Shown piece after piece: positions 1,521-14,354 of a stretch of 64,000 nt of DNA. A program made the translations under genes and the position numbers. The notes under the pieces are model-generated. The model saw only the letters and a program-made list of their open reading frames with translations, made no database searches and was not told where the DNA came from. The stretch is taken from positions 69,445,781-69,509,780 of the forward strand of contig NC_090397.1 of NCBI RefSeq assembly GCF_036365525.1, in the 5' to 3' direction. Origin of the DNA: Heterodontus francisci. Taxonomy: Eukaryota. Each line of letters begins with the position of its first letter. The stretch's first letter is position 1.

Positions 1521-3187
1521 TTACTGACAGCTACATTGAGTGGGAACACTCAGCTGAGCAGCTTTTGCTCGGTCAGTTTGTTTAAAAACATCATACTGCG
1601 TTTCACAGCTCAGTTGCTGAAGCGGAATGCGCTTCCCAACATCGGACAGATTTGAGGTTTTCCTGTGGACGTTTTGAAAAAAGTCGGAAAACCCCAAATC
1701 TGTCCGGTGTTGGGAAGTGTGTTTCCACTTCCTGCGTCAGCAGCTGAGCTGTGAAACTCAGTGCGATGTTTTTAAAAAGGCCAGTCTGCAAGAAGAAGAC
1801 AATGGGAATTTCCCATCTCCAGTCACGGAGCCCTGGGGAGGATGAGGAACGGCCTCGGATACAGTTTACACCCGCGGGCCGGATGGAAACCTTTGGCGGG
1901 CTGGATCCTGGCCCGCGGGACGTATGTGGGACAAGCTTGGTCTAGATGTAGTTTATTTTATTAATTAATCTTCCAAATCACTCTTCACTGTCCCCTACAA
2001 TTAACTTTGGAGTTTTAATTTCTTATTACACAGCAGATTGCTAACATAAAAAAAAAACACGAAGGTCGCGTTTCCTCGGAATATTTTAAAGTTGACCGTG
2101 CGCGACTGCACTCACATAATAACCAGTCCAAAGACCAATTGCTGTGTGTTCGTCTCCTCAAGTTGGTCCCCTATCACTTGCTCAATTCACTGTCCTATAA
2201 GATTGGTGATTTTACCTCCAAGTTATGCTGAAGTTTTTGTGTCAATGGGGCATAAAAACCATGTAACATCAGTGCAAAAGCCAGGCATTTGGTGGAAACA
2301 GTTTTGCTCTGATGTTATTTGATGTTCAGTTGTGTTATACGGAACCAAATACTGGCATTAATTTGTTTAAGTCATGGTCGCATGCTTCAAAGAATTATAA
2401 AATCTGGTGTATAATTGGTGGCTTCATCCTCTCCTGAGGGCTGATCTTTTGACTATTATGCTCTTGCCCTCTGGCACGCTCTTCTAAAACCTTTATCTAT
2501 CTCTCCCTGCATTCACCAGCCTCCTAAAACATAAGTGCCTTTGGATTCTTTCCTCCCTGCAAATTCCTTCATTCCTTGCTCAGCTTCCAGCTGTAAACAT
2601 CTCTCAGTTAGACCTTACATGAGGAGCACCACACAACTGTGACATCAAGTTTCACCAAGCCGACAGCACAGAAACAGGCTGTTCGATCCACCTGGTCTAT
2701 GGCAGCGTTTATGCTCCACAACAGCCTCGTTGTAAGTTTAAAGGTATGACCTGTGCAGTCATATCAGTTCAGGTGTCAGCAAAATGGCAAGCAGAAAATT
2801 GGACACATGGAACTCTTCACTGACAAACATGGATTTTTAAAAAGTTTCTGTCCGTTCTAGTCTTGACTTCAAAAGCACTGATAATAAATAAATCAACCAC
2901 TGGTCTCCAACAAGAGTGGCTGTGAGACATGCCAAACAATTTAGTAAAGAGATTCTCTTTTAATTGATTGTTCACCAGTAATTATTGCAGTTTACTTCCA
3001 TTGTCACAGTGTGGATTGTAAAGGAGATTCAGCTGGACAGACTGATATATAACACATTGTATGTTTTGAGAATGGCCGCAGGGCAGTTCAGGTAAAGTGA
3101 AGAAAACGTCAAAACTCTACTTTTAAAACGTCAGTACAAAGTACTACCCTTGATTTCTGTACACTCTTTACCCCGTGGAATACTTAC

Positions 3188-3196
3188 TTGGTCCCT
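3188..3196 (-). CDS. Candidate 9-nt microexon of FRMD4A (unconfirmed)
   Basis: Minus strand TATGCTGCTATTTTCGATTGCTTTCTGCAAAG|AGGGACCAA|GTAAGTA; frame-preserving, no stop in the phase-1 frame. Confidence 0.4.
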
Positions 3197-3645
3197 CTTT
3201 GCAGAAAGCAATCGAAAATAGCAGCATAAATACCATCATTACAGACAGTTTATAAACACACTGCAATCCAGAGAATCTATCATTTTTCCACTGTGAATAC
3301 CAGCTCAGTTTCACGTTTCCACTCATTTTAGGAGGTCTAATGCTAGCTCATTTTCCTAATCCAAACAATGGGAAATTTAAAAAAAAACTAAATTGAGTGT
3401 GGTTTAGTAAGAATTCTAAAAAAATTGGAAAAAAGGCCAAGACTCTGACCTTAATGAAGAATATCTGTTTCATTTGCAATTTTGATTAAATGCGATTCTA
3501 ACCTTGCATGAATGCTGGAAGAAATGTTTTATCCTCCATAGTATAATGGGAATGTGCGATGGACACTCCGCAGTTCAGGCTGAGATGATTAATTCCTCTG
3601 ACAAACAGGATTGGCAGTTAATAGGGATAAGTACAGACTGAAGAA

Positions 3646-4070
3646 AACAGGAAGACTTGCATTTATATAGCGCCAGTCATCGCATAGCCCTTTACAGCCA
3701 ATGACGTACTTTTGAAGTGTAGTCACTGTTGGAATGTGGGAAACGCAGTAGCCAATTTGTGCACAGCAAGCTCCCACAAACAGCAACGAGATAATGACCG
3801 ATAATCTGTAATTTTTTGTGATGTTGATTGAGGGAGAAATATTGACCAGGACACCAGGGAGAACTCCCTTACTCTTCTTCAAAATAGTGCCATGGGATCT
3901 TTTACATCCACCTGAGAGAGTAGACAGGGCTTCAGTTGAACATGCCATTCGAAAGACGGTACTGCACTGGAGTGTCAGCCTTGATTTTTGTGCTAAGTCT
4001 CTGGAGTGAACCCACAAACTTCCAACTCAGAGGCAGGAGTGTTACCAACTGAGAGCCACAGCTGACACTG
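3646..4070 (-). mobile_element. Deu-domain SINE (SacSINE1/AmnSINE1-related)
   Basis: Minus strand Deu core CTCTCAGGTGGATGTAAAAGATCCCATGGCACTATTTTGAAGAAGAG and an L2-like tail GCGCTATATAAATGCAAGTC. Confidence 0.8.
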
Positions 4071-6707: not shown

Positions 6708-6849
6708 CTGATGACAGCAGGCTGCCACTGCTTCCACTGATGATTTTGCCTTTACTTCCCATATTAGCTAGCTTGGACATCTTCAAAGTTCCAGTTTCCG
6801 TTAAATCAATGGCGATTTCACTTAGACTTCTTGCTGCATGAATTTTCGA
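6708..6849 (-). CDS. FRMD4A: FRMD4A coding exon (142 nt) SKIHAARSLSEIAIDLTETGTLKMSKLANMGSKGKIISGSSGSLLSS-G
   Basis: CAG acceptor, GTGAG donor, phase 0 to 1; peptide matches recalled FRMD4A rather than FRMD4B. Confidence 0.95.
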
Positions 6850-7959: not shown

Positions 7960-8334
7960 GTCTAAATAACCACAGACTGAGTAGTGAACAGCACCAGGGA
8001 TCCTGGATGGTTTTCCTCCTGTGTAGCCCAGAGACACAGGCAAATTGCAGTGGTCAAAACCACAGCCTGGCTAAGATTAGCACAAAGTAGTCACTGAGCT
8101 TGGGAACGTCTTGGTCAGTAAGGTTCACTAGGCAGTGCATTCACTAACTGAGCCAAAGAGATTGCAGGGGAGGCAATGGAAGCTATTCATTTAGTCTGTT
8201 CTCCAACATCTCGTGCAAAGTGGCATTTATTTATAAATAGGATTCTTAAGTAAAGAAAAAAGGTCTGTAGATAATATATGCCAAGGGCTAAAACACTTGA
8301 TCTAGGAAATATTTTTAGCCTAGTTTATGCTCAC

Positions 8335-8473
8335 CTTGCTTTGTTTTCTGTCCAGGTAGAACTGATGCTGACTAATGGCCATTGCCCAAATTGACTTAAT
8401 CAGAGCAGTGCTGGCATACCATGTATGCACTGCGATTCCACTGTGACCAAACGTTCTCCTGGTTACAGAAGCC
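8335..8473 (-). CDS. FRMD4A: FRMD4A coding exon (139 nt) ASVTRRTFGHSGIAVHTWYASTALIKSIWAMAISQHQFYLDRKQSK
   Basis: CAG/GTGAG splice sites, phase 2 to 0; end of FERM C-lobe. Confidence 0.96.
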
Positions 8474-8911
8474 CTGGGAACATAAACAGAAAGCAAAGTT
8501 GCTGTACAAGTTTCTCTCCGACCCCAAGAGTGTATAGCGTTACTGTTCACAATAGTTTGAACATTTACAATATGAATTCCGTCTCTCGCTATGAATGTTA
8601 GCAGCATTCCCTCTTCCTCCCACAGGACTTTGACTTCAAAAGACTGCAGATCGATCTTACAATCTTATTCAGAACAACTAATGGATTTTAAGAAGTTTTG
8701 TTTGCATACTTAAAACAAACACTGGATACAAGGCAGCAGCCTGCTAACACCATCTTTACACAAATGTTGGCAAGTTATTTACAATTTTAAGATAGCAAAA
8801 ATTCCAAATTTTTAGAAGCAATCTGCTTCTATTTTCCCAGGAAGAATATACAAGCAGGCAGAAATCAGACTGGACTGTGAATGACACTAATAAACAATGG
8901 CTTTACTTTAC

Positions 8912-12632: not shown

Positions 12633-14194
12633 CAAAGAACAAAGAACAGTACAGCACAGGAACAGGCCATTCGGCCCTCCAAGCCTGCGCCGATCTTGAT
12701 GCCTGCCTAAACTAACACCTTCTGCACTTCTGGGACCCATATCCCTCTATTCCCTTCCTATTCATGTATTTGTCAAGATGTCTCTTAAACGTCGCTATCG
12801 TATCTGCTTCCACCACCTCCCCTGGCAGCAAGTTCCAGGCACTCACCACCCTCTGTGTAAAGAACTTGCCTCGCACATCCCCTCTAAACTTTGCCCCACA
12901 CACCTTAAACCTATGTCCCCTAGTAACAGATTCTTCCACCCTGGGAAAAAGCTTCTGACTATCCACTCTGTCCATGCCGCTCATAACTTTGTAAACCTCT
13001 ATCATGTCGCCCCTCCACCTCCGTCGTTCCAGTGAAAACAATCCGAGTTTTTCCAACCTCTCCTCATAGCTAATGCCCTCCAGACCAGGCAACATCCTGG
13101 TAAACCTCCTCTGTACCCTCTCCAAAGCCTCCATGTCCTTCTGGTAGTGTGGCGACCAGAATTGCACGCAATATTCTAAGTGTGGCCTAACTAAAGTTCT
13201 GTACAGCTGCAACATGACTTGCCAATTTTTATACTCTATGCCCCGACCGATGAAGGCAAGAATGCCGAATGCCTTCATGATTACCTTATCCACCTGCGTT
13301 GCCACTTTCAGTGACCTGTGGACCTGTATGCCCAGATCTCTCTGCCTGTCAATACTCCTAAGGGTTCTGCCATTTACTGTATACCTCCCACCTGCATTAG
13401 ACCTTCCAAAATGCATTACCTCACATTTGTCCGGATTAAACTCCATCTGCCATTTCTCCACCCAAGTCTCCAACCGATCTATATCCTGCTGTATCCTCTG
13501 ACAATCCTCATCATTATCCGCAACTCCACCAACCTCTGTTTCGTCCGCAAACTTACTAATCAGACCAGCTACATTTTCCTCCAAATCATTTATATATACT
13601 ACAAACAGCAAAGGTCCCAGCACTAATCCCTGCGGAACACCATTAGTCACATCCCTCCATTCAGAAAAACACCCATCCACTGATACCCTCTGTCTTCTAT
13701 GACCGAGCCAGTTCTGTATCCATCTTGCCAGCTCACCTCTGATCCCATGTGACTTCACATTTTGTACCAGTCTGCCAAGCGGGACCTTGTCAAAGGCTTT
13801 ACTAAAGTCCATATAGATAACATCCACTGCCCTTCCTTCATCAATCATCTTCGTCACTTCCTCAAAAAACTCAATCAAATTAGTAAGACACGACCTCCCC
13901 TTCACAAAACCATGCTGTCTCTCGCTAATAAGTTCATTTGTTTCCAAATGGGAGTAAATCCTGTCCCGAATAATCCTCTCTAATAGTTTCCCTACCACTG
14001 ACATAAGGCTCACCGGCCTATAATTTCCTGGATTATCCTTGCCACCCTTCTTAAACAAAGGCACAACATTGGCTATTCTCCAGTCCTCTGGGACCTCACC
14101 TATCGCCAATGAGGATGCAAAGATTTCTGTCAAGGCCCCAGCAATTTCTTCCCTTGCCTCCCTCAGTATTCTGGGGTAGATCCCATCAGGCCCT
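12633..14194 (-). mobile_element. Young 5'-truncated CR1 LINE with an uninterrupted RT reading frame
   Basis: ORF 12712-14268 with PGNYRPVSL, QHGF, DFSKAFDKV, GVPQGLVLGP, FADE, RPHLEYC; (TTCTTTG)n tail; no endonuclease domain. Confidence 0.95.
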
Positions 14195-14354
14195 TGATGA
14201 TGTATTTGATGATGATTTTTTTTTTGCCTGTTGCTTGGCCGCTCTATTATCCACCCATAGACTGGCATGTCTACTCTTCACTGAATACTTAGCCCATCTA
14301 TTCTCCACTTGATGTCACCTCTCTGTTGACTGCTCTGCAATTGTTATCCAGCCA

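What the first reader, a model, noticed from the sequence alone, without database searches (positions are those of the whole stretch)
3188..3260. Candidate 9-nt neural-type microexon in FRMD4A
Seen: on the gene strand TGTAAT...TTTATGCTGCTATTTTCGATTGCTTTCTGCAAAG|AGGGACCAA|GTAAGTA. It has a consensus donor, about 60 nt free of AG upstream of the acceptor and four UGC motifs near the 3' splice site, and it lies in repeat-free sequence. The intron is phase 1 (upstream exon ends TCA G), so inclusion reads G-AG GGA CCA A.., adding 3 residues (E-G-P-) just after the SSGSLLSS linker without a frameshift. Known: UGC motifs near the 3' splice site plus long AG-exclusion zones typify SRRM3/4-dependent microexons. 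Inference: a tissue-regulated microexon that gene predictors would miss.
Basis: partly seen in the sequence, partly recalled or inferred. Interest (0 to 1): 0.7.

Follow-up and report, generated by a model that had tools for sequence, protein, structure and literature searches.

The report
Unconfirmed 9-nt microexon in shark FRMD4A
A shark FRMD4A intron holds a nine-base stretch with the splice signals of a nerve-cell microexon, but every transcript and protein checked skips it and mouse and zebrafish surveys list no counterpart, so it is likely silent or rarely used, with a fair chance of being a shark-only neural exon.

Summary
The sequence is as described. On the minus strand of a shark FRMD4A gene, AAG|AGGGACCAA|GTAAGTAT lies at 3196-3188 in a 16.6-kb phase-1 intron. 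It has a donor matching U1 at 10 of 11 bases, 62 AG-free bases and four UGCs upstream. It was the only site passing my stricter (post hoc) filters in 1.93 million strand-bases; a Markov null gave 0.03-0.2 such sites per Mb. Inclusion would turn S-G-S into S-E-G-P-R-S just before the cytohesin-binding CUPID domain.

No use was found. Seven of 8 RNA-like contig sets reach the junction and show skipping (3 by letters, 4 inferred); tissues are unknown and contigs drop minor forms. None of 423 FRMD4A proteins has the insert, including 37 from 16 cartilaginous fishes. MicroExonator tables for mouse and zebrafish list only the 23-nt constitutive Frmd4a exon. Conservation among sharks could not be tested.

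Verdict: about 55% silent or trace-level cryptic microexon, about 40% real lineage-restricted SRRM3/4 microexon. Either is a known kind. The scan's earlier notes hold nothing on it.

The parts
3188..3196 (-). Candidate 9-nt microexon AGGGACCAA; in frame, would give E-G-P-R in place of G
   Evidence: no transcript support
3180..3187 (-). Donor GTAAGTAT; with exonic CAA it matches the U1 pairing consensus (recalled) at 10 of 11 bases
   Evidence: 16 such donors in 1,928,000 strand-bases
3197..3199 (-). AAG acceptor; a second AG 2 nt downstream would give a 7-nt unit
3199..3260 (-). 62-nt AG-free zone with TGC at 3226, 3223, 3210 and 3203; broken pyrimidine tract; no consensus branch point
2732..3628 (.). 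Repeat-free island holding the site near its centre; second longest in the intron
   Evidence: 13% of positions in the gene stretch are as far from a repeat
6708..6849 (-). Upstream FRMD4A coding exon (SKIHAARS...GSLLSS), ends in phase 1
   Evidence: covered by contigs

Best explanation
The nine bases sit between real-looking splice signals in an FRMD4A intron, are skipped in every informative transcript set examined, and are likely a silent or trace-level (cryptic) microexon, not a conserved neural exon. Shown: the signals, the open frame, and direct joining of the flanking exons. Inferred mechanism: a 9-nt unit with a weak AAG acceptor, a broken pyrimidine tract and no clear branch point cannot be defined by the core spliceosome, so the 16.6-kb intron is removed whole. 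The strong donor and UGCs could let SRRM3/4 pull in a small share in neurons; a 3-residue insert in a serine-rich linker would be nearly neutral, so such a site could arise and persist without being selected.
For: Runs X2, X5, X7: loose-end letters after the upstream exon are the downstream exon itself. X1, X3, X6, X13: a single contig per run crosses the exon and ends 1-2 bases past the donor, which fits the skip form (inferred). 378 of 423 proteins have the uninserted junction, 2 have unrelated longer inserts, 43 were not matched on both flanks, 0 contain EGPR; 36 of 37 cartilaginous-fish isoforms skip and 1 lacks the upstream exon. Mouse and zebrafish MicroExonator tables list only the 23-nt exon in the Frmd4a interval. 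Looser versions of the motif are expected about 31 times per 2,000 Mb by chance, and first readers select such sites from many windows.
Against: At its own values the combination is very rare: 0 in 135 Mb simulated, about 2e-4 per Mb from empirical marginals. It is on the sense strand, in frame, stop-free, purine-rich and in repeat-free DNA. The RNA sets are of unknown tissue and are contigs, which drop minor forms. Gene annotation often misses neuronal microexons (PMC7821500 passage), and zebrafish has many lineage-specific ones (PMC12626424 passage).
Confidence: 0.55

Rival explanations
1. A real SRRM3/4-dependent neural microexon confined to cartilaginous fishes or to this shark lineage. 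In neurons SRRM3/4 would bind the UGCs and, with U1 on the strong donor, include the 9 nt, lengthening the FERM-to-CUPID linker by three residues and possibly tuning cytohesin/Arf signalling.
For: Strong donor, weak acceptor, UGC near the AG and a UCUC at -78 fit the published layout (bioRxiv 2024.09.17.613571 passages and section 10). Rarity under the null. Two SRRM_C (PF15230) loci exist in G000. The insert falls just before the CUPID match.
Against: No inclusion contig in 7 informative runs; 0 of 423 proteins; absent from mouse and zebrafish tables; no strong distal pyrimidine tract or branch point; no matching site in the same intron of the FRMD4B-like paralogue.
Confidence: 0.4
2. The strong donor is used with another 5' boundary: the tandem AG (7 nt), an upstream AG (73, 89, 103, 116 or 134 nt; all frameshifting, so a poison exon), or an alternative first exon, since an ATG-led frame upstream runs open into E-G-P.
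For: Acceptor list; 59-codon stop-free frame 3347-3168.
Against: No contig covers 3000-3203 in 4 runs (weak, a hole proves little); no protein with such a start among those checked; the frame has no credible homologue.
Confidence: 0.05

Closest known systems
SRRM3/4-dependent neural microexons (3-27 nt), as described in bioRxiv 10.1101/2024.09.17.613571 and PMC12626424
   Same: 9 nt, frame-preserving, strong 5' splice site, weak 3' context, UGC close to the AG, long AG-free zone, host is a cytoskeleton/GTPase adaptor gene
   Different: No inclusion seen, no tissue data, no counterpart in mouse or zebrafish tables, pyrimidine tract and branch point are weak
Cryptic microexons (PSI under 10 in over 90% of samples, with or without UGC/UCUC; definition in bioRxiv 10.1101/2024.09.17.613571)
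   Same: Splice-site-flanked tiny unit with regulator motifs that is skipped in the samples seen
   Different: Even low-level inclusion has not been shown here
FRMD4A constitutive 23-nt microexon (window 63312-63290)
   Same: Tiny exon of the same gene
   Different: It is in the annotated protein P0023 and listed as included in mouse and conserved in zebrafish; the 9-nt site is in none

Membership tests
SRRM3/4-dependent neural microexon | 3-27 nt between AG and GT, usually in frame | tested here: met
   9 nt, phase 1 on both sides, no stop
SRRM3/4-dependent neural microexon | Strong 5' splice site | tested here: met
   10 of 11 U1 consensus matches by a simple count, not MaxEnt
SRRM3/4-dependent neural microexon | UGC between branch point and AG, with UC-rich element upstream | tested here: met
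   TGC at -30, -27, -14, -7; TCTC at -78
SRRM3/4-dependent neural microexon | Strong pyrimidine tract and branch point set back from the AG | tested here: inconclusive
   AG-free 62 nt, but longest pyrimidine run 6 and no yUnAy match; only TAAT/TGAT-type cores at -45 and -42
SRRM3/4-dependent neural microexon | Included in neural transcripts, skipped elsewhere | tested here: inconclusive
   Skipped in 7 of 7 informative contig sets of unknown tissue
SRRM3/4-dependent neural microexon | Conserved across jawed vertebrates (typical, not required) | tested here: not met
   Absent from mouse and zebrafish tables and from 423 proteins; other shark genomes not testable
SRRM3/4-dependent neural microexon | Inclusion depends on SRRM3/4 | not testable with these tools
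   Only the regulators' domain was shown in G000
Cryptic microexon | Detectable but low inclusion across samples | not testable with these tools
   Only contigs were served; no raw reads
FRMD4A (host gene) | FERM domain followed by CUPID, orthologous sequence | tested here: met
   FERM_C, CUPID, exons match named FRMD4A proteins

The most novel reading that the evidence does not exclude
An unannotated, cartilaginous-fish-specific SRRM3/4 microexon that makes a neuronal FRMD4A isoform with three extra residues at the edge of the cytohesin-binding CUPID domain, either gained in sharks or lost in bony vertebrates.
Probability: 0.35. Interest if true: 0.4.

Novelty: new member of a known kind. Interest (0 to 1): 0.22.

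Why it matters
If used, it adds one lineage-restricted member to a programme of a few hundred neural microexons per vertebrate, in a gene tied to brain development, and gives a case for studying how microexons are born or lost. It would not change how the class is understood. If silent, it shows that motif reading alone cannot call microexons.

Tried and rejected
No RNA holder was on record as RNA; the runs are RNA by guess, although their contigs are spliced. X4 does not reach the junction. Exact 25-mer scan of metagenome contigs: 0; exon-peptide scan there: 597 pattern matches, 0 confirmed; vertebrate DNA is scarce there, so neither counts as evidence. Translations of frames across the site as a proxy for conserved intron DNA: no candidate; 2 hits that are unrelated tandem-repeat proteins. 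Rfam over 2700-3660: 2 matches far below the gathering score. Paper searches for FRMD4A with microexon, micro-exon or SRRM4 gave only one unrelated paper, listed as preprint and journal version. Gene-name searches of supplements found no FRMD4A exon row: PMC12626424 (12 files), PMC9303857 (12 of 18), PMC12626420 (12 of 13), PMC7935315 (12 of 19; two expression rows only); these had no positive control for gene names. The name search in PMC7821500 was uninformative because its tables use coordinates, so I searched by coordinate. PMC4390143 was not held. VastDB could not be consulted. Earlier scan notes: nothing near, nothing by sequence, nothing on FRMD4A.

Full report
Observation. The described sequence is present on the minus strand. 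The 9-nt unit is at 3196-3188, preceded by AAG and followed by GTAAGTAT; 62 bases upstream of the acceptor AG are AG-free and TGC starts 30, 27, 14 and 7 nt before the unit. The site is single-copy in G000 and lies in an 897-bp stretch without repeats as judged by BLAST against 964 kb of the same genome; 13% of positions in the gene stretch are as far from a repeat, so this is mild support only.

Host gene. The window holds part of FRMD4A: FERM_C matches 8320-8664, CUPID matches lie just outside the window, and the exon 6849-6708 is identical at protein level to named shark FRMD4A proteins. The named protein P0023 maps exon by exon over the window and its neighbourhood. The downstream exon starts about 9.9 kb left of the window with GG TCC CAG, so the intron is 16.6 kb and phase 1; skipping reads S-G-S-Q-E, inclusion would read S-E-G-P-R-S-Q-E. 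The insert would fall in a serine-rich linker just before CUPID, the domain that binds cytohesin Arf-GEFs (PMC6226287, passages).

Chance. I scored AG-(3-27 nt)-GT sites by U1 matches, AG-free length, TGC count and pyrimidines. In 1,928,000 strand-bases 12 sites passed the loosest tier, 2 the next and only the candidate the two strict tiers. An order-6 Markov null gave 145, 30, 4 and 0 hits in 135 Mb for tiers T2-T5. Products of empirical marginals give about 0.4 sites per 2,000 Mb at the candidate's own values and about 31 with looser ones. The tiers are post hoc. A vertebrate has a few hundred neural microexons (zebrafish: 243 scored, 191 affected by srrm3/4 loss; PMC12626424 passages), and only a small share would reach these values. 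My rough estimate, resting on assumed feature frequencies, is therefore near-even or somewhat favourable odds from sequence alone.

Fit to the known layout. Published features are a strong 5' site, a weak 3' context, UGC between branch point and AG (79% and 74% of two classes), a UC-rich element and a strong, set-back pyrimidine tract and branch point (bioRxiv 2024.09.17.613571, passages and section 10). The first three are met and TCTC lies at -78; the last is not clear: no yUnAy match, longest pyrimidine run 6, no UGCAUG nearby. G000 has two SRRM_C loci, so the regulators are likely present.

Transcripts. One search listed 23 runs, all contigs, none on record as RNA; I laid 8 of them. In X2, X5 and X7 the letters after the upstream exon are those of the downstream exon. 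In X1, X3, X6 and X13 one contig crosses the exon, the bin depth equals that single contig, and the piece ends 1-2 bases past the donor, as the skip form predicts and the inclusion form (next base A) does not (inferred, as repeats crowded out the loose-end rows). X4 stops short of the junction. The runs come from 3 coded organisms and 3 samples; tissues are not given, and contigs drop minor forms. This lowers but does not exclude neural inclusion.

Proteins. Of 423 FRMD4A-like proteins fetched (120 of 547 and 120 of 515 hits listed, plus cluster members), 378 have the uninserted junction, 2 carry other inserts of 12 and 35 residues, 43 were not matched on both flanks, and none contains EGPR. 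Among 37 isoforms from 16 cartilaginous fishes, 36 skip and 1 lacks the upstream exon. Annotation misses many neuronal microexons (16.1% of 402 conserved ones missing from zebrafish Ensembl; PMC7821500 passage), so this is moderate evidence.

Conservation. In the MicroExonator mouse table the only row in the plus-strand interval searched (prefixes chr2 41-46; locus position recalled) is a 23-nt included exon whose sequence resembles window 63312-63290. Its zebrafish partner is likewise the only row in chr18 prefixes 83-86 of the zebrafish brain table. So these surveys found no 9-nt Frmd4a exon in either species. The FRMD4B-like paralogue has no comparable site in the same intron. Other shark genomes were not available; indirect searches were blank. 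Four paper searches found no report of an FRMD4A microexon; unsearched supplement files, closed bioRxiv supplements and VastDB could still hold one.

Verdict. The anatomy is real and unusual, but every test of use came back negative or blind. I put 0.55 on a silent or trace-level cryptic microexon, 0.40 on a real lineage-restricted SRRM3/4 microexon and 0.05 on another use of the donor; these odds are judgement, not computed. Both main readings are known kinds, so interest is low (0.22). Raw neural reads or one other shark intron would settle it.

Noticed in passing
window 63312-63290, minus strand: A 23-nt FRMD4A exon (EAKGDYSS) that is in P0023 and listed as a constitutive microexon in mouse and zebrafish tables.
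   Followed up: yes
window 3204-3407: In one search this non-repeat bin just upstream of the candidate had contig depth in X6 (63) and in the more distant organism's run X13 (11.4) but none in X1 or X3. The pieces were not listed; it may be an A-rich chance match or conserved intron DNA.
   Followed up: partly
window about 30856-30790, minus strand: A FERM-domain exon (EDRVIEH...GQAIVN, 22 residues) is present in the genome but skipped in isoform P0023.
   Followed up: partly
protein P0176: A primate FRMD4A isoform has a different 12-residue insert at the same junction, so this junction is alternatively spliced in another lineage.
   Followed up: no
window 12712-14277, minus strand: A 521-codon open frame that looks like a CR1/LINE reverse transcriptase (recognised from recall); about 46-48% of the intron DNA is repeat.
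   Followed up: no
G000:C49:11579095-11582166 and G000:C2065:61659-64715: Two CUPID-domain loci with near-equal scores and spacing, possibly one gene assembled twice or a recent duplicate.
   Followed up: no
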